From IMG/VR virus record IMGVR_UViG_2713896902_000002, positions 1 through 36,980 of that record: a stretch of 36,980 nt of DNA; one strand, written 5' to 3'. Under the pieces are notes generated by a model. It had not been told where the DNA came from. It saw only the letters and a list, made by a program, of their open reading frames with translations, and made no database searches. The stretch comes from a virus (taxonomy: Duplodnaviria > Heunggongvirae > Uroviricota > Caudoviricetes). Position 1 is the first letter of the stretch, and the number at the start of each line of letters is the position of its first letter. The position numbers and the translations under genes are program-made. This document shows, in pieces, positions 7,105-15,152 of this stretch.

Positions 7105-8064
7105 ATGAAAATTTGTATCGACGACGGCTCCACCAACATCAAGCTGGCATGGACTGAGAACGGCGAACGCAGCAACGCCATCAGCCCGAACAGCTTCAAG
7201 TCGGAATGGTCTGCGCCGTTCGGTGGCACGCAGCCCGCGAACTACATGCTTGATGGCGTGCGCTATGGTTTTGATCCGGTCAGCGATCGCTTTGTCCAGA
7301 CGACCGACACGCAATACCAGTACAGCGATGTGAATGTAATCGCCATTCACCACGCGCTGGTCAAATCAGGCATCACACCACAGGAAGTGGATGTGGTTGT
7401 CACCCTGCCACTGAGCGAATATTTCGACACAAACGCACAGCCGGACATGGCCAACATCAACCGCAAAAAAGCGAACGTTATGCGCCCGGTGGAGTACCAG
7501 AACGGCAAAGCATTCACTATCCGTAACGTACGGGTTATGCCTGAATCCATTCCGGCTGGCTTTAAAGCACTGGCTGACATGAGTCCGTTTGAATCCCTGC
7601 TGATTGTGGATTTAGGCGGAACCACGCTGGATGTGGCAAAGGTTCAGGGACAACTGGCAGGTATCAGCCAGGTGTTTTGCGATCCACACGTAGGCGTTTC
7701 CCTGATGGCCGATGCCGTACTGTCGGTGATGGCCACTAACGGTATGCGTACCAGCCACCACATCGCCAATACCATTATCGAACATCGCCATGATGAAGCC
7801 TGGCTGCGCCAGCACATCCACAATGACGCGCATTACGACAACCTGATGGCGGTTATTCGTGAAAAGGAAGAAACACTGAAACAACGCGTGATCCGCGCGC
7901 TGGCGGTTTTTTCGGGTTACGGGCGGGTGATGGTTGTCGGTGGAGGGGCGGAGATTGTGGCACCCGCTATCCGCAAAGCCTGCGGAGTTAATGCGACTTT
8001 CATCGCGGACGGGGTGCCACAGTATGCTCTGGTTAATGGGCTGTACGCAATGGACAAGGAGTAA
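7105..8064 (+). CDS. parM: ParM/StbA-family actin-like segregation ATPase
   Basis: MKICIDDGSTNIKLAW...YQYSDVNVIAIHHAL...VMPESIPAGF...LIVDLGGTTLDV...VMVVGGGAEI tracks remembered plasmid R1 ParM (MLVFIDDGSTNIKLQW...WQYSDVNVVAVHHAL...VMPESIPAGY...LIIDLGGTTLDI...VMVIGGGAEI). Confidence 0.85.
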   Translation: MKICIDDGSTNIKLAWTENGERSNAISPNSFKSEWSAPFGGTQPANYMLDGVRYGFDPVSDRFVQTTDTQYQYSDVNVIAIHHALVKSGITPQEVDVVVTLPLSEYFDTNAQPDMANINRKKANVMRPVEYQNGKAFTIRNVRVMPESIPAGFKALADMSPFESLLIVDLGGTTLDVAKVQGQLAGISQVFCDPHVGVSLMADAVLSVMATNGMRTSHHIANTIIEHRHDEAWLRQHIHNDAHYDNLMAVIREKEETLKQRVIRALAVFSGYGRVMVVGGGAEIVAPAIRKACGVNATFIADGVPQYALVNGLYAMDKE

Positions 8065-8068
8065 ACCA

Positions 8069-8380
8069 ATGACGACACCAACCAGACGGATAAGTTTCTA
8101 TCTGAAGCCTGCGGCCGTCAAGAACGAAAGCGAAGCATGCGCCTGGCTGGACAGCCTTACACCAGAAGCCCGCAAAAGCGGCCAACGCGTGGCTTTTCTG
8201 GCCGGGCTGGCACTTCTGAAAATGGATCCAGCAGAGGCTTACCGACTGGCTGCATGGGCTGACGATGAGGCGTTATCTGTGACACAAACCAGGACAGAAC
8301 GCCCCGTGTCACAGCCAGTACCAACCGCACAGATAACCAGTCAGATGGCCGGAAATATCCGGGCGCTATTTCCTGAGTAA
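8069..8380 (+). CDS. parR: ParR-like ribbon-helix-helix centromere-binding protein
   Basis: RBS caaggag then ATG 8069; RRISFYLKPAAVKNE...LDSLTPEARKSGQRVAFLAGLALLKMDP...IRALFPE resembles remembered R1 ParR (RRTIAFKLNPDVNQ...LDSIPQGERSRLNRAALTAGLALYRQDP...LRSLFPKE). Confidence 0.7.
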   Translation: MTTPTRRISFYLKPAAVKNESEACAWLDSLTPEARKSGQRVAFLAGLALLKMDPAEAYRLAAWADDEALSVTQTRTERPVSQPVPTAQITSQMAGNIRALFPE

Positions 8381-8561: not shown

Positions 8562-9707
8562 ATGAACATTCAACAGCGTATAGCAGAACGCTTGGTTCAG
8601 GCCAGAAACGACGCAGGAATGAGTGCAAGCGCCGTCGCAGATGCGATCGGTGTTGTTCGTCAAACCTACAGTAAGTTTGAGCAGGCGCTAGGCGTCCCAA
8701 GCGTTACCCAACTCATCATGCTCTGCAAGATTTTCGATAAGCCTATCGGGTATTTTTATGAGCAAGATGATGGCGAGTTTCGTTTTGCAATGCGAGCAGA
8801 TAGTCCGGATTTGTTGGATGCCAAACTTCGCAATGAGTTGATTGAAAAGTTAAAAAATATCAATGCAATTGAGGAAGCTGCTGATGCTAATTTGCCAGAA
8901 GATCTTCCTAACTCAATGCCTATTTTTACCGCCAAAGCAGAAGATTTGCGAAGAGTCGAAGATAAGGCTATGGAAGAACGTTTCCGTCTTGGTATAGGAA
9001 ACGCTACTTGCGTTGGTGACATTGTAGCCATTTTGGAAGCATCGGATATTCGAGTAATCCCGTTCAATCGCGAAGAAACCGATAAAGGGATGGTATTCGG
9101 ATTTTCTGCGTTTTCGAACAAATACGGTACCGCGATTTATGTAAATGTTCACGATAGCATTTCAATAGAACGTCAAATCTTCAGTATTTGCCATGAATAT
9201 GCTCATCTTATCTTCCACCGTGATGAGTATGATGGCCCTGCTAAAAGCTATAAAACCAATGGCAAAGCAATTTCACCGGAAGAAAAAGTTGCTAATCACT
9301 TTGCTGCTTGTTTTTTGGTACCAGAAAGCGCATTGCGAAAACAATTCGTCATGCAAGGTGGTGGATGGGCGTATGAGGAAACCGTCCTTAGACTAAAAAG
9401 CATTTTCAGAGTATCAGCCACTTGCATCATCGATCGTCTTAGTAAATGTAATTTAATTAATCAACAAAACACTAGATACCTATGGGCAACCGCCAATCGT
9501 AAAGGTTGGAAGAGACACGAGCCAAATCCCATTAGGGAAGCACTAAATTATAAAGGCCGCCTAACCGTCTTATCGCGTAAAGCATGGGAAGCCGGTTCCG
9601 CGTCGGAAACCTTCATATCTGAACTTTTAGAATTAGACAGAAAAGCTCTCAGCAATCTTCTGGATGAATGGTACGACGAACAGGAGGCCGGAGAGGATGC
9701 CGTTTGA
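8562..9707 (+). CDS. Xre-family HTH fused to ImmA/IrrE-type (M78-like, COG2856) zinc metallopeptidase
   Basis: N-terminal HTH (MNIQQRIAERLVQARNDAGMSASAVADAIGVVRQTYSKFEQALGVPSVTQL); HEXXH in SICHEYAHLIFH; AT-rich upstream region, RBS aggtga; visibly AT-richer than flanking phage genes. Confidence 0.8.
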   Translation: MNIQQRIAERLVQARNDAGMSASAVADAIGVVRQTYSKFEQALGVPSVTQLIMLCKIFDKPIGYFYEQDDGEFRFAMRADSPDLLDAKLRNELIEKLKNINAIEEAADANLPEDLPNSMPIFTAKAEDLRRVEDKAMEERFRLGIGNATCVGDIVAILEASDIRVIPFNREETDKGMVFGFSAFSNKYGTAIYVNVHDSISIERQIFSICHEYAHLIFHRDEYDGPAKSYKTNGKAISPEEKVANHFAACFLVPESALRKQFVMQGGGWAYEETVLRLKSIFRVSATCIIDRLSKCNLINQQNTRYLWATANRKGWKRHEPNPIREALNYKGRLTVLSRKAWEAGSASETFISELLELDRKALSNLLDEWYDEQEAGEDAV

Positions 9708-10215
9708 ATGCCCCAGATGTGTTATCGATACGAATGTACTGTCTGATTTTTACGAAGGTAAATGCTTAGATCTTATCTGGCAAATTTACCCGGGTGGTGT
9801 GTGGATTGACCCCTATGTCTGCGAGGAACTAAAAGCTAAATACAATCTTGATGTTCAGGAACAGCTTACACGCCTGCAACTTCCATACAATTTCACCAAT
9901 GATTACGAACCTGAACATTTTATTGAAATGGCTGAGATAAAAAATCGCAGGAGAGCATTGAAGTATGCGGACATAAGCTGCGTTGTTAACGCGAGAATAC
10001 ATGATGCAACATGTCTTTCGGCGGATAATGCGGTTTATAAAACGTGTGCGGAACGCGGTGTAAAAGCCGCCCGCCACGGAGGGCTACTTCAAGAGGCTGT
10101 GCGCAGGAGACTTATCCACAAACAACAAGCCTTAATGCATTTCCAATTTTTCCTAGATCGTGGGTTAACGATGAAATCTTCTGTTCGAGAACAGATTCTT
10201 GCCAGTTTCGAATGA
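9697..10215 (+). CDS. PIN-like domain nuclease (predicted effector/toxin); alternative start 9664
   Basis: Start overlaps end of the HTH-peptidase gene (RBS caggagg); N-terminal VIDTNVL strand with Asp, later ADISCVVNARIHDATCLSADNAVY fitting the PIN D..IAA.A...L.T.D pattern. Confidence 0.55.
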   Translation: MPFECPRCVIDTNVLSDFYEGKCLDLIWQIYPGGVWIDPYVCEELKAKYNLDVQEQLTRLQLPYNFTNDYEPEHFIEMAEIKNRRRALKYADISCVVNARIHDATCLSADNAVYKTCAERGVKAARHGGLLQEAVRRRLIHKQQALMHFQFFLDRGLTMKSSVREQILASFE

Positions 10216-10290: not shown

Positions 10291-10324
10291 TGCGCAATGC
10301 ACAATTGTGCACAAATTTGCACAA
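10291..10324. repeat. TGCACAA direct-repeat array at 10-bp phasing with embedded perfect palindrome TGCACAATTGTGCA
   Basis: tgcgcaa tgcacaattgtgcacaaatttgcacaa: heptamer at 10298, 10308, 10318 plus variant at 10291; palindrome 10298..10311. Confidence 0.5.
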
Positions 10325-10697
10325 TTTTTTTGAACGACTTTTTACCCTTCCAGCCCGCATGGTGGCTGGTTCCGTCAAGGATCCGTGCGTGCACAAAAAA
10401 AACGCATTTTTTCTGCGCGCAGGTGACGGGGGAACAGCCCGCGTTTCAGGGGGTAAATAGCATTCCCCGAACGATGTCGCAGAGACACAACAGAATGGCT
10501 GTATTTCTCACGCTGAGCATGAAAAAACGTGAGGGCTTTTGATTTGATGGGGTGACAGATAAGGCCGTCAGAATCGCACTGAGGCGGCGAGAACATGCAG
10601 TCAACACGGTAGGATTGCGTAAGAGCCTGACCGTCGATGATGGCAATAAGCTGGAAGACGTCGTGAAATTATTTGATTGATACAGGAGCTGGAGAGT

Positions 10698-10740
10698 CGG
10701 GGCATAAATTTTTTATGCCCCGGCGAGGCAGCAGACAAGC
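10698..10740. other. candidate cos region: 11-bp-stem hairpin followed by GGCGAGGC... 19-mer
   Basis: cggggcataaa-ttt-tttatgccccg hairpin, then ggcgaggcagcagacaagc whose first 8 nt match remembered P2/186 cohesive ends (GGCGAGGCGGGGAAAGCAC); located between hotspot and Q as in P2. Confidence 0.3.
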
Positions 10741-10824
10741 GAAGCGCGTCAGTGATACAGCACCTTGCCGACCATCATTCATGGGCGCAAAATACACACA
10801 AAGGAAATCAATGGAGGCTGTCTT

Positions 10825-11349
10825 ATGGTCATTAATTACAAGCAGTTAAGAGAAAAACGAGATCAGGTAAAGGAGAGTTTTCGCCGCAATGAAGACCTGA
10901 CCCCGCTTGTACGCATTGCCCAGGGAATTGTTGATGCTTATGAAATCTCGCTGGAGCTGCCATCACAGACCTGGACAGATAGCGACGGTAATCGCCAGCA
11001 TTACGTTTCATGCGGACTGGAAACAGCAGAAGGGTTTCGCAGAATGCCTTTATCCCAGATTCCTGCCGCTACCCCCAAAGCAAGAGGCAGCAATGATGAG
11101 CGAAAACTGACTTTCAGTATTGAAACAGTTGTTGACGACACACCTGGCGAAGTCGCATTCGTGCTCACTCCCCTTTCGATCACAATGTATAACGATGAAA
11201 TACAGGTTCGCGTTAATAATAATATCGTGCCACTTAAAGAAGGTAATTCCCCCTACACCACCGTTTGTGAAGCGATTCAATATTACGTTCTCTCTGAAAT
11301 TGATAATCTCAGACCTGACGGCACCCGGAAAATGGTTCAACTCTGGTAA
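10825..11349 (+). CDS. hypothetical protein (moron between candidate cos and portal gene); ORF extends to 10765
   Basis: RBS ggagg before ATG 10825; ORF convergent with Q and ending at a bidirectional terminator; no recognisable motifs. Confidence 0.5.
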   Translation: MVINYKQLREKRDQVKESFRRNEDLTPLVRIAQGIVDAYEISLELPSQTWTDSDGNRQHYVSCGLETAEGFRRMPLSQIPAATPKARGSNDERKLTFSIETVVDDTPGEVAFVLTPLSITMYNDEIQVRVNNNIVPLKEGNSPYTTVCEAIQYYVLSEIDNLRPDGTRKMVQLW

Positions 11350-11355
11350 AAAGGA

Positions 11356-11380
11356 CAGCCCCATCACGGGGCTGTTTTTT
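11356..11380 (+). terminator. bidirectional rho-independent terminator (cagcccc-atcac-ggggctg + T6)
   Basis: Hairpin flanked by A-run upstream and T-run downstream; overlaps the last codons of Q. Confidence 0.7.
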
Positions 11381-12410
11381 CATCAAGCAGTGCGTAAGGG
11401 TTAAAGCGGATCACCTCTTCGCCAAGCCAGTCATTGATGTGCTTCATGGCCTCCATGACGGGCATCAGCTCGTTAATTGCGTAAACCCGCGCAGCCTTCT
11501 CCACATCACCAAACGCACTTTTTTCGCCCGGCATCGCCCCCATCAGTTGCGGCGGAACGCGGTGCGCAGCCAGCACATCATCACGGGACGCCGCCTTAAC
11601 ATTCATGAACTCATCCTTTGCGGTGATCTGCTGGAACGGCAAAATTTGCACACCTTCTTTACCCCCGTTGGGCGCATGAATGAGCACGTTTTTAAACGCA
11701 CCACCACCACGCGCACCCTGTAGCGTTTCTTTCAGGGAGTCCATGCTTTCGCGGTCTACCCGTGCTGCACCGATGTAGACGATGCACCCGGCGTGGGATC
11801 CATTGTCGTAATACAGCTTTCTGAACGCGTCCGCCGAATGAGACAGGCTGGCCGAGAGTAATGCGCCGAGATATTCCGGCATGCCGTAGATTTCCTGGTT
11901 AATATCCGGGTTCATCAGGTGGCACACTTTGCCAGGGCGAAACTGAAACGCATCCTTGCCATCCTGCACATACCACCACGATTCGAGATCGCTTCCGCGG
12001 CGCATGTATTTCGCCAGTGCGTGTCGTAATTTCAGCGGTTCGCCGAGCATATTGCTTCGAAGTTCAAGGAATGCGTTACCGAACACAAACCAGTCCAGCG
12101 CCAGCGCCGAGAAATCCTGCCGGGAAAGCAGCGGGTGCGGGATATAGCAACCGAGCAATACATTGCGCTTAAAGTAAAGCGCAGACTGATGCCAGGACGT
12201 TTGCCGGGCAGCTCTTGCCAGACCGTACCAGTCCACCGGGGTTTCATACCACCGACCGTTATCGGCACAGTACATATTGTCCAGCAGGTCATGCCCGGTC
12301 AGGCGATAAGGACCATCAAATGTGAACGCGCTGAGCGACGATTCTTTCCTGAGCGCATCAGCGAGATCAATGCGTGAACTCATGCGCACTTTTTTATTTT
12401 TTCTGCTCAT
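11364..12410 (-). CDS. Q: portal protein (P2 gpQ family)
   Basis: 348-aa ORF at the P2 portal position, leftward, downstream of P; typical length. Confidence 0.85.
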   Translation of the reverse strand: MSRKNKKVRMSSRIDLADALRKESSLSAFTFDGPYRLTGHDLLDNMYCADNGRWYETPVDWYGLARAARQTSWHQSALYFKRNVLLGCYIPHPLLSRQDFSALALDWFVFGNAFLELRSNMLGEPLKLRHALAKYMRRGSDLESWWYVQDGKDAFQFRPGKVCHLMNPDINQEIYGMPEYLGALLSASLSHSADAFRKLYYDNGSHAGCIVYIGAARVDRESMDSLKETLQGARGGGAFKNVLIHAPNGGKEGVQILPFQQITAKDEFMNVKAASRDDVLAAHRVPPQLMGAMPGEKSAFGDVEKAARVYAINELMPVMEAMKHINDWLGEEVIRFNPYALLDEKTAP

Positions 12411-14161
12411 CAGAACTCCATAACCGTGAAACGCTCGTTTTCTCCTTCGCCGCCAATCGGTTCGTTAATGACAGCAAGCATGGTTGCCCAGGCCAGGTCG
12501 CCGTGGCTGATCCCCCTCGCGCGGTCCGTTTCGTAAGTGATGAAACCCCCCGCTGTTTTCACCTTACGCACGGCATTAAAGGCTGCGACCAGCTCGCGTT
12601 CGGCGCGATCGTATTCCCACCGCCCGGCACGCATTATTTGCAGCATTTTCAGTACCAGCGACCGTTTTGATGACAGCGTGAAGGTGTACGGAATAGCAGC
12701 AGGGAAAAACCGTTTCACTATCTGATAAACAGCCTCCCCGTTCCCGCCCGTCACATCAATGCCGATGTGTTCCACGTTGTAGCGATACGTGAAATCTTCA
12801 ATGACTCTGGCCTGTTCTTCAAACTCCAGCCCCTGAACGCGTCGCGTCTCCACCGTTCGAAAACGGCCACCAGGAACAGCCGGAGGAACCACCACGGATA
12901 CAGCGCCGCTGTCGCCGTTGCCACTGCTGCCGTTTGCGTCATACCCAATCCATACCGGACGATTCCCCATCGGGCGGGGAGCAAAAGGTTTCCAGTCTTT
13001 CCAGTCGTCGTATCCGTCAACACCGCAGCCAATCAGGATATTCAGGTTAAATGCCGATTCCCCTTCGCGGACAAACTCACACATATAGAGATTGAGGAAC
13101 TCGTCTTCGGTGTTTTCATCACGAATTTCGTCAATATCGGTGTGTTTCCAGCCGTGATTAACCACGTCTTCCAGCGTGACAATTTGCCGCCACGTCCGGT
13201 CAGGGCAGATAAGCCCGTTATGCAGCGTTTTCCAGTCCACAGAAAAACGCTGGCGTTTATGCGTGGCCTTTTTCTCGTTCCAGCGGTCGCCGTTCCAGTA
13301 GACGTATGCCTCATGCGTTTCGGTGGATGGCGTGGAGAAGTAGGTACGCCGCAGTCCGCTGAGGGTTGCCATAGCGCCAGCCACCTTGCGCAGTTCAGCA
13401 AAGCGACTGACCCAGAAAAATTCATCAAAATAAAAATTACCCGTGTAGGACTGCGCCGTCGCCGCAGAAGTGCCGAGAAAATGCAGCTCTGCGCCGTTGG
13501 AGAGGATGATTTTATCGCCCCCTTTCAGCTCAACATCAACTTCAGATGCAGTCTTCTGAATAATGCTTTTAAACTGGAACGCCTGACGACGCGACGCAGA
13601 CAAAAAAATCTGGTTACGCTGGTAAGGTTGCGCCACATCGTCACGCAGCGCCATCAGCAGTGCTTCCTGTGCAAAATACCAGGTCGCCCCAATCTGTCGG
13701 GATTTCAGGATCATTCTGTTACGTATCCCGGCTTCCCTGCAAAGGGTCAGGGAGTCAAACCAGCCCCGCTGATGCCACTCCAGCCTGCTGATGATTTTTT
13801 CCCGCAGTGCGGCAATCTGTTCCGGCGTGAAATGATTTTTAAGTTTTTTCGCCCGGCCTTTCTTTCCTGTGGCCGTCGCATCCGGCTGGCCATCATGCAG
13901 TTTTTTAAGCTGCCGGGTCAGCAGGTCTATTTCTTTGAAGTCACCACCTGTTTTATTCTGTTTTTCAGTAAGCTGGATGAGGCGCGCATCGATGGACTGC
14001 GTGACACGCTGCACGGGTGGCGTTTCATCCCACTGGTCGCGTTTTTTCCACGCATAAATCGTGTTCGGGTTTATTCCCATCAGACGTGATATTTCTGCGG
14101 GCGGATAACCCTGCCAGTAAAGTTGCCGCGCACGCTGGCGCACAAAAGCGTCCTGAATCAT
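12410..14161 (-). CDS. P: terminase large (ATPase) subunit (P2 gpP family)
   Basis: 583-aa ORF divergent from O; P2 Q-P/O-N-M-L organisation. Confidence 0.88.
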   Translation of the reverse strand: MIQDAFVRQRARQLYWQGYPPAEISRLMGINPNTIYAWKKRDQWDETPPVQRVTQSIDARLIQLTEKQNKTGGDFKEIDLLTRQLKKLHDGQPDATATGKKGRAKKLKNHFTPEQIAALREKIISRLEWHQRGWFDSLTLCREAGIRNRMILKSRQIGATWYFAQEALLMALRDDVAQPYQRNQIFLSASRRQAFQFKSIIQKTASEVDVELKGGDKIILSNGAELHFLGTSAATAQSYTGNFYFDEFFWVSRFAELRKVAGAMATLSGLRRTYFSTPSTETHEAYVYWNGDRWNEKKATHKRQRFSVDWKTLHNGLICPDRTWRQIVTLEDVVNHGWKHTDIDEIRDENTEDEFLNLYMCEFVREGESAFNLNILIGCGVDGYDDWKDWKPFAPRPMGNRPVWIGYDANGSSGNGDSGAVSVVVPPAVPGGRFRTVETRRVQGLEFEEQARVIEDFTYRYNVEHIGIDVTGGNGEAVYQIVKRFFPAAIPYTFTLSSKRSLVLKMLQIMRAGRWEYDRAERELVAAFNAVRKVKTAGGFITYETDRARGISHGDLAWATMLAVINEPIGGEGENERFTVMEF

Positions 14162-14315
14162 TGCTCCCCCTGAGTAATTACAGGAAGATTACCCGCGCGC
14201 GAAACTGTTCTCCTTAACCCCCTGTTCTGGCCGTTTTCTTACAACAAAAGCCCTTTGTATCAGCCTGTTACGCTTTGCCATCATGACCGAAGAACCAGTC
14301 AGAGGGGCAAAAACT
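14162..14315. promoter_or_regulatory. divergent late-promoter region between P and O (P_P / P_O equivalent)
   Basis: Position by analogy with P2; I could not find a clean TGT-N12-ACA activator site by eye. Confidence 0.3.
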
Positions 14316-15152
14316 ATGGCTAATGAAAAAAAGACATCCCGCAAAAAGTTTCGCGTGGCTGTCTCTGGATCAACTGTTGATGGTCGCGAAATCAGTCCGG
14401 TGCATCTGCGTGAAGCCGCTGAGAACTTCGACCCGGATGTTTACGCCGCCCGCGTGAACGTTGAGCACTATCTCTCGCCATGCCCGTCAAGCGAATTTTC
14501 CGCAATGGGCGATGTTACCGCACTGAGTACGGAAGACATTACGGAAGGTCCGCTGGCCGGGCGTACTGCGCTGTATGCAGAAATCGAACCGACCGAGCGC
14601 ATGAAGAAGCTTGTCGCTGACGGCAAGAAAATTTATTCCAGTATCGAACTGCACCCGCAGTTCTCCGTTAACGGGCGCGCCTATCTGGTCGGGCTGGCGA
14701 TGACCGACACCCCAGCAAGCCTAGGCACTGAACGTCTGAAATTCACGGCACAGCAACGTCAGGCAGTGATGAAATTCAACAGTGTCCAGGGTGAGGCTCC
14801 GCTTATCTCCGAAGCCATCGAGTCTGAAATCATCGAAATGGCAGAACAACGCCAGGAAGAAGGCGCCCAGTGGTTTAACCGCATAATGGGAATTATTGGC
14901 CGTAGCCGCAAAGCGGATGACGCCAGTTTTTCCCGTATTCAGGAAGCGGTGGAAGGCGTCGCAACGTCACAGGCCGACATTATCGACCGTTTTAATGCAC
15001 TGGAAGCCCGCCATAAGCAGGACAGCCAGAAAATCACTTCACTGACCACAGAGCTGACAGCACTGAAGGGAAAACTGCGCACGCAGGACGGCGATCCGCA
15101 GAACCGGTTCACCGCAACGGGCGCAGCCTCCGACCAGCTGGCTGACTTCTGA
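14316..15152 (+). CDS. O: capsid scaffolding protein (P2 gpO family); ORF opens at 14283
   Basis: MANEKKTSRKKFRVAVSGSTVDGREISPVHLREAAENFDPDVY resembles remembered P2 gpO N-terminus; LVGLAMTDTPASLGTE matches YLVGLAVTDDPASLGTE. Confidence 0.85.
   Translation: MANEKKTSRKKFRVAVSGSTVDGREISPVHLREAAENFDPDVYAARVNVEHYLSPCPSSEFSAMGDVTALSTEDITEGPLAGRTALYAEIEPTERMKKLVADGKKIYSSIELHPQFSVNGRAYLVGLAMTDTPASLGTERLKFTAQQRQAVMKFNSVQGEAPLISEAIESEIIEMAEQRQEEGAQWFNRIMGIIGRSRKADDASFSRIQEAVEGVATSQADIIDRFNALEARHKQDSQKITSLTTELTALKGKLRTQDGDPQNRFTATGAASDQLADF

What the first reader, a model, noticed from the sequence alone, without database searches (positions are those of the whole stretch)
10698..11349. Candidate cos site and an unknown moron gene between cos and the portal gene
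Seen in sequence: an 11-bp-stem hairpin followed by GGCGAGGCAGCAGACAAGC, whose first 8 nt match remembered P2/186 cohesive ends, then a 174-aa ORF with a strong RBS that converges on Q and shares a bidirectional terminator with it. In P2 nothing lies between cos and Q, so this ORF is extra cargo of unknown function.
Basis: partly seen in the sequence, partly recalled or inferred. Interest (0 to 1): 0.4.

Follow-up and report, generated by a model that had tools for sequence, protein, structure and literature searches.

The report
Misplaced cos; real prophage moron gene
In this P2-like prophage the proposed DNA-packaging (cos) site is probably a conserved hairpin at the end of the portal gene. 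The true cos lies about 300 bp upstream, and the 174-aa gene is a genuine, selectively maintained add-on gene of unknown function sitting in a known cargo hotspot.

Summary
The sequence features are real: an 11-bp hairpin (10698-10722), GGCGAGGCAGCAGACAAGC (10722-10740), and a 174-aa ORF (10825-11349) that converges on portal gene Q and shares a terminator with it.

The cos reading is not supported.
- The 8-nt match to P2 is at chance level (1 seen, 1.66 expected).
- Relatives carry GGCGAAGC instead.
- In a divergent phage, GGCGAAGCAGC is simply the 3' arm of a 21-bp palindrome.

A profile of the cos regions of P2, 186, SEN4 and Klebsiella phage 3LV2017 hits the window once, at 10294-10452 (E=8e-12). 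This places the cohesive-end homolog at about 10422-10440 (GGTGACGGGGGAACAGCCC).

It is probably a 3'-end hairpin between convergent genes.

The ORF is a true moron.
- It is a 636-bp indel cassette with its own promoter, RBS and terminator.
- GC is 46% against 54% for its neighbours, and dN/dS is 0.13-0.19.
- Its left end is present in about a third of 1159 related E. coli prophages.
- Distant homologs sit in lambdoid moron slots.

The family (phrog_5091) has no known function, fold match or defence-model hit. A prophage-expressed exclusion or defence factor is the best guess. This is ordinary cargo in the known gpA-gpQ hotspot.

The parts
10294..10452 (+). Region homologous to the P2-family cos region; the most likely true cos of this phage
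   Evidence: nhmmer with a profile of the cos regions (-135 to +30) of P2, 186, SEN4 and Klebsiella phage 3LV2017 gives E=8.3e-12 (39.7 bits). It is the only significant hit in the window. SEN4 alone gives 4e-9 and 3LV2017 alone 2e-10. Hand alignment.
10298..10324 (+). Three TGCACAA boxes at 10-bp spacing, with a fourth at 10388-10394 followed by an A-run. They correspond to the TGCAT/TGCATTAAAACC boxes upstream of the P2 and 186 cos. Possibly terminase binding sites (inferred).
   Evidence: Sequence. The same layout appears in P2, 186, SEN4, 3LV2017, phiT5282H and Salmonella prophages.
10422..10440 (+). GGTGACGGGGGAACAGCCC, preceded by TGCGCGCA. Positional homolog of the 19-nt cohesive end of P2 (13 of 19 identical) and of SEN4 (shares CGGGGGAAC). 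Exact nick positions are not known.
   Evidence: The SEN4 record starts at the aligned base, and its sticky ends are published as ggcgaggcgggggaacgag (PMC5261728). The 19-mer is identical in Salmonella and Enterobacter relatives whose flanks are about 75% identical.
10552..10680 (+). 42-codon stub. It is the N-terminal remnant of a 236-aa gene that is intact in some relatives, and whose residues 64-230 belong to the ORF174 family.
   Evidence: Translation comparison. hhalign of the L041 236-aa protein against the ORF174 family gives probability 98.6%, E=7.5e-16. Nucleotide match 10295-10676 to L041.
10685..10752 (.). Conserved palindromic element ('core A'): GAGCTGGAGAGT, then the 25-nt hairpin 10698-10722, then GCGAGGCAGCAGACAAGCGAAGCGCGTCAG. 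More likely a 3'-end or terminator-type hairpin between convergent genes.
   Evidence: Conservation boundaries are sharp on both sides and the flanks vary. In relatives lacking the ORF, Q's stop codon lies in its GTCAG. In L056 the arms extend to 21 bp and include GGCGAAGCAGC. Fold z = -5.15.
10753..11388 (+). ORF174 cassette: an indel relative to P88, P88_4B11, 500465-2 and others
   Evidence: Alignment. Cassette (ORF) present in 12 of 80 IMG/VR loci. Its left end is present in 397 of 1159 E. coli genomes carrying the element. GC is 46.2% against 54% for Q and P.
10765..10793 (+). Predicted sigma-70 promoter TTGCCG-17 nt-CAAAAT
   Evidence: Read from the sequence. It scores 8 of 12, below the scan threshold. 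The same positions read TTGTCT-17 nt-CAAAAT in Salmonella cassettes that are about 60% identical at protein level. Not verified experimentally.
10825..11349 (+). ORF174 (174 aa), RBS GGAGG at 10813-10817; member of phrog_5091, function unknown
   Evidence: (E=4.2e-65). dN/dS 0.13-0.19. AlphaFold2 model pLDDT 81.7.
11355..11375 (.). Bidirectional intrinsic terminator shared by ORF174 and Q. Q's stop codon lies in the loop, and the cassette supplies Q's last five codons (…DEKTAP instead of …DTQPTS).
   Evidence: sequence, alignment.
11364..12410 (-). Portal gene Q
   Evidence: Annotation of relatives. 48% identity to P2 Q.

Best explanation
The window is a P88-like (Xuanwuvirus/Peduoviridae, P2-family) prophage.

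(1) Location of cos. Its cos is most likely at 10294-10452. That stretch holds phased TGCACAA boxes, an A-run, a short hairpin and TGCGCGCA, followed by the cohesive-end homolog GGTGACGGGGGAACAGCCC (10422-10440).

The hairpin plus 19-mer is part of a 68-bp conserved palindromic element (10685-10752). It lies immediately after the stop codon of whichever gene converges on it: Q in most relatives, an Ogr/Delta gene in one divergent phage, and an ORF174-family gene on the other strand in some relatives. It occupies the place of the P2 tQ and 186 tW terminators. I infer that it is an RNA 3'-end or termination hairpin separating convergent transcription units. This step is an inference and has not been shown.

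(3) ORF174. It is an autonomous moron cassette inserted between that element and the last five codons of Q. It has its own promoter, RBS and terminator, is low in GC, is variably present, and is under purifying selection. It is oriented against the late operon, so it is probably expressed from the prophage.

(4) Likely function. The family also occupies the moron slot between the lysis genes and terminase in lambdoid prophages. A divergent paralog sits on the other side of the palindrome in some P88-like phages. The model is a soluble alpha+beta protein with no catalytic signature. My best guess (about 35-40%) is that it is a lysogenic-conversion factor that excludes or aborts other phages by binding a phage or host protein, as P2 Tin does.
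For: For the cos location:
- The profile hit at 10294-10452 has E=8.3e-12 and is unique in the window.
- The aligned architecture is shared with P2, 186, SEN4, 3LV2017, phiT5282H and Salmonella prophages.
- The SEN4 record begins at the aligned base, and its sticky ends are published.
- The distance from this site to Q in relatives lacking the ORF (about 310 nt) is comparable to P2 (168), 3LV2017 (about 240) and phiT5282H (about 270).
- L047, which has the same core A, has its own cos homolog 470 nt upstream with a different 19-mer (E=1.6e-25).

For the palindromic element:
- Q's stop codon lies inside it in relatives lacking the ORF.
- Palindrome arms reach 21 bp in L056.
- There are compensatory and G·T changes in L056 and in an integrative conjugative element (ICE) copy.
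- It is identical in phages whose large terminase is only 35% identical, which decouples it from terminase specificity.

For the moron:
- Indel structure.
- Cassette left end found in 397 of 1159 genomes; ORF found in 12 of 80 loci.
- GC of 46% against 54%.
- dN/dS of 0.13-0.19.
- Salmonella orthologs lie in the same slot behind different upstream cargo.
- Lambdoid homologs lie between lysis genes and terminase.
- A paralog lies on the other side of core A.
- The gpA-gpQ interval is a published anti-phage hotspot (PMC9122126).
Against: Against the cos location:
- No virion-end data exist for any P88-like phage.
- The predicted cohesive segment differs from P2 at 6 of 19 positions.
- It needs a 2-nt gap to align with SEN4.
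- The isolated phage P88_4B11 has a 5-nt deletion inside it.

Against the palindromic-element reading:
- The hairpin has no U-tract on either strand, so it is not a canonical intrinsic terminator.
- The 30 nt after the hairpin are also strictly conserved, which a plain terminator does not explain.
- A diverged copy sits in an SPI-7-type ICE.

Against the proposed function:
- No hit to any PADLOC, Pfam or NCBIfam model.
- No significant structural neighbour.
- The promoter is predicted only.
- Some copies are frameshifted or truncated.
Confidence: 0.55

Rival explanations
1. One reading: 10722-10740 is the cohesive end (cosN) of this phage, with the hairpin as part of cos.
For: - The position is next to Q.
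- The hairpin shares its last G with the 19-mer, as the CCGCCC...GGGCGG hairpin does at the P2 and P4 cos.
- GCGCG lies a few bases downstream, as in P2.
- The element is conserved with sharp boundaries in 1159 of 5426 complete E. coli genomes.
Against: - No profile similarity to known cos regions, while 10294-10452 scores E=8e-12.
- The 8-mer is at chance level, and the family consensus is GGCGAAGC.
- GGCGAAGCAGC is the 3' arm of the palindrome in L056.
- The element is identical in phages with 35% identical TerL and 28% identical TerS, yet decayed in Salmonella relatives with 78% identical TerL.
- L047 has both this element and a separate cos homolog.
- None of 80 P4-like satellites carries it.
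Confidence: 0.08
2. The palindromic element is a mobile cis-acting signal rather than a transcript-end hairpin. It could be a second packaging signal recognised by another terminase (a hitch-hiking site, which would explain the ICE copy), a single-strand DNA priming or processing site, or a recombination anchor at which cassettes are exchanged.
For: - It occurs in three or more phage lineages and in an SPI-7-type ICE, with different flanks.
- Cassettes abut it on both sides.
- G·T pairs are tolerated only on the plus strand, which suggests a single-stranded form.
- In L056 no other cos homolog was found within 1.3 kb.
Against: - No satellite-like context was found.
- The L056 contig is short on that side.
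- Only one non-phage copy was seen among 5426 genomes, and it is 79% identical.
- No Rfam family matches.
Confidence: 0.15
3. ORF174 is not a defence or exclusion factor. It could be a counter-defence protein, or a modulator acting on packaging or head assembly, and it may be expressed during lytic growth.
For: - In both P2-like and lambdoid phages, family members sit next to the packaging module.
Against: - It is oriented against the late operon and has its own sigma-70-like promoter and terminator.
- It is dispensable in most relatives, including plaque-forming isolates.
- The structural matches are not significant.
Confidence: 0.2

Closest known systems
cos site of P2, 186 and P4 (19-nt 5' cohesive ends within a conserved region of about 55 bp; Ziermann & Calendar 1990, as cited in PMC9122126 and PMC3931495)
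   Same: Window 10294-10452 shares the layout: repeated TGCA boxes about 100-135 nt upstream, a TGCA(T/C)(T/A)AAAA box, a short hairpin, and then a G-rich 19-mer beginning GG(C/T)GA. It lies between the cargo and the 3' end of Q.
   Different: The 19-mer is 13 of 19 identical to P2 and lacks 2 nt relative to SEN4. TGCGCGC lies upstream rather than downstream of it. No P4-like satellite sampled carries this variant. The ends have not been determined experimentally.
P2 tQ and 186 tW terminators (rho-independent terminators just after the portal gene)
   Different: It has no U-tract. It has a 30-nt strictly conserved tail. It is shared by phages with very different terminases and by an ICE.
P2 lysogenic-conversion genes old and tin, and the gpA-gpQ defence hotspot (Rousset et al. 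2022, PMC9122126)
   Same: ORF174 is variable, low-GC, independently transcribed cargo in the interval between replication gene A and portal gene Q. The same interval here also carries a RosmerTA-like pair.
   Different: ORF174 lies on the Q side of cos, where P2 has no gene. It matches no described defence family, and its activity is untested.
Lambdoid morons between the lysis cassette and terminase (such as lambda bor); recalled from general knowledge
   Same: Distant ORF174 homologs (about 30% identity) occupy exactly that slot in lambdoid prophages.
   Different: There is no sequence or fold relationship to Bor. ORF174 has no signal peptide or lipobox.

Membership tests
   11 of 19 identical (10 of 19 for the family consensus). 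Twelve other window sites reach 13 of 19 or better. The 8-mer occurs once against 1.66 expected.
   The profile of four cos regions gives no hit at 10685-10752.
   Identical where TerL is 35% identical, and decayed where TerL is 78% identical. Absent from 80 P4-like loci and from psu-adjacent positions in E. coli genomes.
   No P88-like record starts at the site, and there is no literature.
P2-family cos site (applied to 10294-10452) | Sequence homology to experimentally defined cos regions | tested here: met
   nhmmer E=8.3e-12, unique in the window. The link to P2 and 186 runs through SEN4 and 3LV2017, because P2 or 186 alone do not reach significance.
P2-family cos site (applied to 10294-10452) | Position between the accessory cargo and the 3' end of the portal gene, with the G-rich strand reading toward Q | tested here: met
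P2-family cos site (applied to 10294-10452) | Virion DNA ends map there | not testable with these tools
   The P88_4B11 record is a circular permutation opened at about 10343/10344 with no terminal repeat, so it is uninformative.
Moron (autonomous accessory cassette in a prophage) | Presence/absence polymorphism between otherwise collinear phages | tested here: met
Moron (autonomous accessory cassette in a prophage) | Own promoter and terminator; composition unlike the neighbours | tested here: inconclusive
   The terminator is clear and GC is 46% against 54%. The promoter is only a conserved 8-of-12 match with no expression data.
Known anti-phage defence systems (PADLOC-DB 2.0) | Match to a model of a described or candidate system | tested here: not met
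   No hit for ORF174 at E up to 0.1.
phrog_5091 (phage protein family of unknown function) | Full-length profile match | tested here: met
   E=4.2e-65, residues 1-167 against profile positions 1-163 of 164.

The most novel reading that the evidence does not exclude
The ORF174 family (phrog_5091) is a new single-gene phage-exclusion or defence family. Its paralogs flank a conserved 68-bp palindromic element that acts as a portable cis module, perhaps a recombination anchor or hitch-hiking signal, and is shared by divergent P2-like phages and an SPI-7-type ICE. If so, the cos-to-portal gap would be a second, previously overlooked cargo slot of P2-like phages.
Probability: 0.2. Interest if true: 0.6.

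Novelty: new member of a known kind. Interest (0 to 1): 0.3.

Why it matters
- It corrects the likely position of cos for a very common group of E. coli prophages (the neighbouring element occurs in 1159 of 5426 complete genomes). This matters for annotation, for defining hotspot boundaries, and for asking which satellites can exploit these phages.
- It shows that cargo can sit on the portal side of cos in P2-like phages, a slot that is empty in P2.
- It flags an uncharacterised protein family that recurs in cos-proximal moron slots of two unrelated phage types.
- If that family proves to be a defence or counter-defence factor, it would be a modest addition to a large and growing catalogue.

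Tried and rejected
1. Satellite test for cos. All 73 P4-like IMG/VR loci in which a cos was detected (of 80 scanned) carry only the P2-type cos, and neither candidate. This is uninformative for choosing between the candidates, but it shows that P4-like satellites do not share this phage's cos.
2. An exact 19-mer scan of one genome per species returned mostly chance matches in unrelated phyla.
3. An HMM built only from near-identical P2- and P4-type cos sites was too narrow and found nothing. Adding SEN4 and 3LV2017 solved this.
4. Conservation profiling within P88-like phages did not discriminate, because everything is 92-100% conserved.
5. I considered TGT-N12-ACA at 10306-10323 as an Ogr-type late promoter and rejected it. 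There are 10 matches against 8.65 expected, and the P-O intergenic region lacks the motif.
6. Rfam gave nothing at or near any family's gathering score.
8. Literature and supplement searches for the 19-mer, for a P88 cos, and for the protein accessions found nothing.
9. An apparent CAGACAAG plus hairpin motif in Salmonella relatives proved to be part of the cassette's promoter region, not a cos relic.

Full report
**Context.** The window is a P2-family prophage of the P88 type (Xuanwuvirus/Peduoviridae).
- Region 10300-11500 is 94% identical to Escherichia phages vB_EcoM-569R5, 705R2 and PhiR44_2. With a gap, it also matches P88, P88_4B11, 500465-2, 520873, Chuche and Citrobacter phiSM.
- Portal gene Q is at 11364-12410 (minus strand), the large terminase P at 12410-14161 (minus), and the scaffold gene O at 14283-15152 (plus).
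- Upstream lie ParM/StbB-like partition genes and a RosmerTA-like pair: an RmrA-like HTH plus M78 peptidase at 8562-9707 and a PIN protein at 9664-10215. This is the known cargo hotspot between replication gene A and portal gene Q (PMC9122126).

**Observation.**
- The hairpin at 10698-10722 has an 11-bp stem and a 3-nt loop. It folds with z = -5.15 against shuffles.
- GGCGAGGCAGCAGACAAGC lies at 10722-10740.
- A 174-codon ORF at 10825-11349 has GGAGG 7 nt upstream of its ATG.
- A hairpin terminator at 11355-11375 is shared with the convergent Q gene. Q's stop codon lies in its loop.

The link to P2 is weak.
- GGCGAGGC occurs once in the window, against 1.66 expected by chance.
- Phage 186 has GGCGTGGC.
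- The full 19-mer matches P2 at 11 of 19 positions, while 12 other sites in the window reach 13 of 19 or better.
- All 80 related loci sampled read GGCGAAGC.

**Where cos really is.** It has sharp conservation boundaries and occurs in 1159 of 5426 complete E. coli genomes. That first looked like a cos, but several results separate it from packaging specificity.
- It is identical in a phage (L056) whose large and small terminase subunits are only 35% and 28% identical to those here.
- It is decayed in Salmonella relatives whose large terminase is 78% identical.
- In L056 the inverted repeat extends to 21-bp arms (GCTGCTTCGCCGGGG...CCCCGGCGAAGCAGC). The supposed start of the cohesive end is therefore just the 3' arm of a palindrome.

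A second conserved block at about 10295-10445 is shared with Salmonella, Enterobacter and Klebsiella P2-like phages.
- In Klebsiella phage 3LV2017, the homologous position reads GCGCGCA-GGCGAGGCGGGGGAGCAAG-CGCGCGC.
- The Salmonella phage SEN4 and SEN5 records begin exactly at the aligned base with GGCGAGGCGGGGGAACGAG. These are published as their sticky ends (PMC5261728).
- All these phages, together with P2 and 186, share the same layout: repeated TGCA boxes about 100-135 nt upstream, a TGCA(T/C)(T/A)AAAA box, a short hairpin, and then the G-rich 19-mer.

An nhmmer profile settles the matter objectively.
- I built it only from P2, 186, SEN4 and 3LV2017, with none of this window's type. It hits the 37-kb window once, at 10294-10452 on the plus strand (E=8.3e-12).
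- It finds nothing at core A.
- The cohesive-end homolog is GGTGACGGGGGAACAGCCC at 10422-10440.
- L047, another lineage with an identical core A, has its own cos homolog 470 nt upstream with a different 19-mer. That is what one expects of a site that evolves with its terminase.

Caveats on this assignment:
- The ends are unmapped in any P88-like phage.
- P2 and 186 alone do not reach significance, so the link runs through SEN4 and 3LV2017.
- The isolate P88_4B11 has a 5-nt deletion inside the predicted segment.

I put the cos in 10415-10450 at about 0.8.

- In relatives lacking ORF174, Q's stop codon lies inside the GTCAG of core A.
- In L056 an Ogr/Delta gene (Pfam E=2.4e-15) stops at the same place.
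- In E. coli GF4 (L041), and by its spacing L067, a plus-strand gene ends 3 nt before the element.
- Core A therefore always sits between the ends of convergent genes, where P2 and 186 have tQ and tW.
- The stem shows a compensatory T-A to A-T change in L056. G·T pairs appear in L056 and in a diverged copy inside an SPI-7-type ICE of E. coli SCU-171, and these pair only on the plus strand.

I infer a transcript 3'-end or termination hairpin, at about 0.45. It lacks U-tracts and has a strictly conserved 30-nt tail, so other cis functions remain open.

**The ORF.** ORF174 is carried on a 636-bp cassette (10753-11388).
- The cassette replaces about 20 bp, including Q's last five codons, changing the C-terminus from ...DTQPTS to ...DEKTAP.
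- It has a conserved TTGCCG-17 nt-CAAAAT promoter candidate at 10765-10793, a strong RBS and an intrinsic terminator.
- Its GC content is 46%, against 54% for its neighbours.
- Its left end is present in 397 of 1159 related E. coli prophages. The ORF is present in 12 of 80 IMG/VR loci, but in only 1 of 46 in a second sample anchored in the mid-region.
- It is under purifying selection, with dN/dS 0.13-0.19.
- Orthologs about 60% identical occupy the same slot in Salmonella P2-like prophages behind different cargo.
- Homologs about 30% identical sit between the lysis cassette and terminase in lambdoid prophages.
- A divergent paralog forms residues 64-230 of the 236-aa gene left of core A in L041 (hhalign probability 98.6%). 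The window's 42-codon ORF at 10552-10680 is the stub of that gene.

The family is phrog_5091, of unknown function.
- It has 75 representative clusters at E of 0.001 or better.
- It has no Pfam, NCBIfam, PADLOC or PDB relative.
- A good AlphaFold2 model (pLDDT 81.7) shows two N-terminal helices, an antiparallel sheet and a C-terminal helix. It has no significant structural neighbour.
- The exact protein is WP_059250482.1, annotated as a hypothetical protein of Escherichia albertii. Neither it nor two related accessions appear in the searchable literature or in the hotspot paper's supplements.

**Mechanism.**
- Shown: the cassette structure, its polymorphism, purifying selection, and the family's distribution.
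- Inferred: expression from the prophage, given its own promoter and its orientation against the late operon.
- Guessed (about 35-40%): a single-protein exclusion or defence factor that works by binding a phage or host protein, in the manner of P2 Tin. Counter-defence or a packaging-linked role is about 20%.

**Verdict.** The 'extra cargo between cos and Q' idea is right and somewhat richer than proposed. This is an ordinary member of a known kind of feature (hotspot cargo of a P2-like prophage), with one unexplained conserved palindromic element nearby. Interest is 0.3.

Noticed in passing
window 8562-10215: RosmerTA-like pair in the gpA-gpQ hotspot. It comprises an HTH plus M78 peptidase protein (PADLOC RmrA, E=2.8e-35) overlapping a PIN-domain protein (Pfam PIN 4e-05; weak PDC-S70).
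   Followed up: partly
window 7105-8380: ParM (StbA_N/ParM, E=1e-81) and a StbB-type plasmid-stability protein lie inside the prophage. This suggests plasmid-like partition capacity in P88-like phages.
   Followed up: no
L030 9001-9066 (E. coli SCU-171 chromosome, SPI-7-type ICE): A 79% identical copy of the palindromic element, with compensatory and G·T changes in the stem. It sits between small ORFs and an STY4528-family replication gene, and is the only non-phage context seen.
   Followed up: partly
L056 9961-10380 (IMGVR_UViG_2563366990_000001): A divergent P2-like phage (TerL 35% identical) with an Ogr/Delta zinc-finger gene between the portal gene and the palindromic element. Here the palindrome has 21-bp arms. 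No cos homolog was detectable on the 1.3 kb available.
   Followed up: partly
L041 2287-2997 (E. coli GF4); window 10552-10680: Some relatives carry a 236-aa gene between cos and the palindrome, and its C-terminal 170 residues belong to the ORF174 family. In the window only a 42-codon N-terminal stub remains.
   Followed up: yes
L002 1-122 and L244 (phage P88_4B11): This isolated phage has a 5-nt deletion in the predicted cohesive-end segment (GGTGACGGGGGGACAG-----GTTTC). Its record is a circular permutation opened inside the cos region at about window 10343/10344.
   Followed up: partly
window 11364-11388: Insertion of the cassette rewrote the last five residues of the portal protein (DTQPTS to DEKTAP) and put the portal stop codon in the terminator loop.
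   Followed up: yes
L162-L241 (80 P4-like satellite loci): All 73 P4-like loci in which a cos was detected carry the P2-type cos. They diverge immediately after TGCGCGC, and none has the P88-type site. P4-like satellites therefore probably cannot use P88-like helpers through cos identity.
   Followed up: partly
L242 3001-3291 and proteins P0011-P0018: Several ORF174 copies are truncated or frameshifted (96-124 aa), so the gene is dispensable and sometimes decaying.
   Followed up: no
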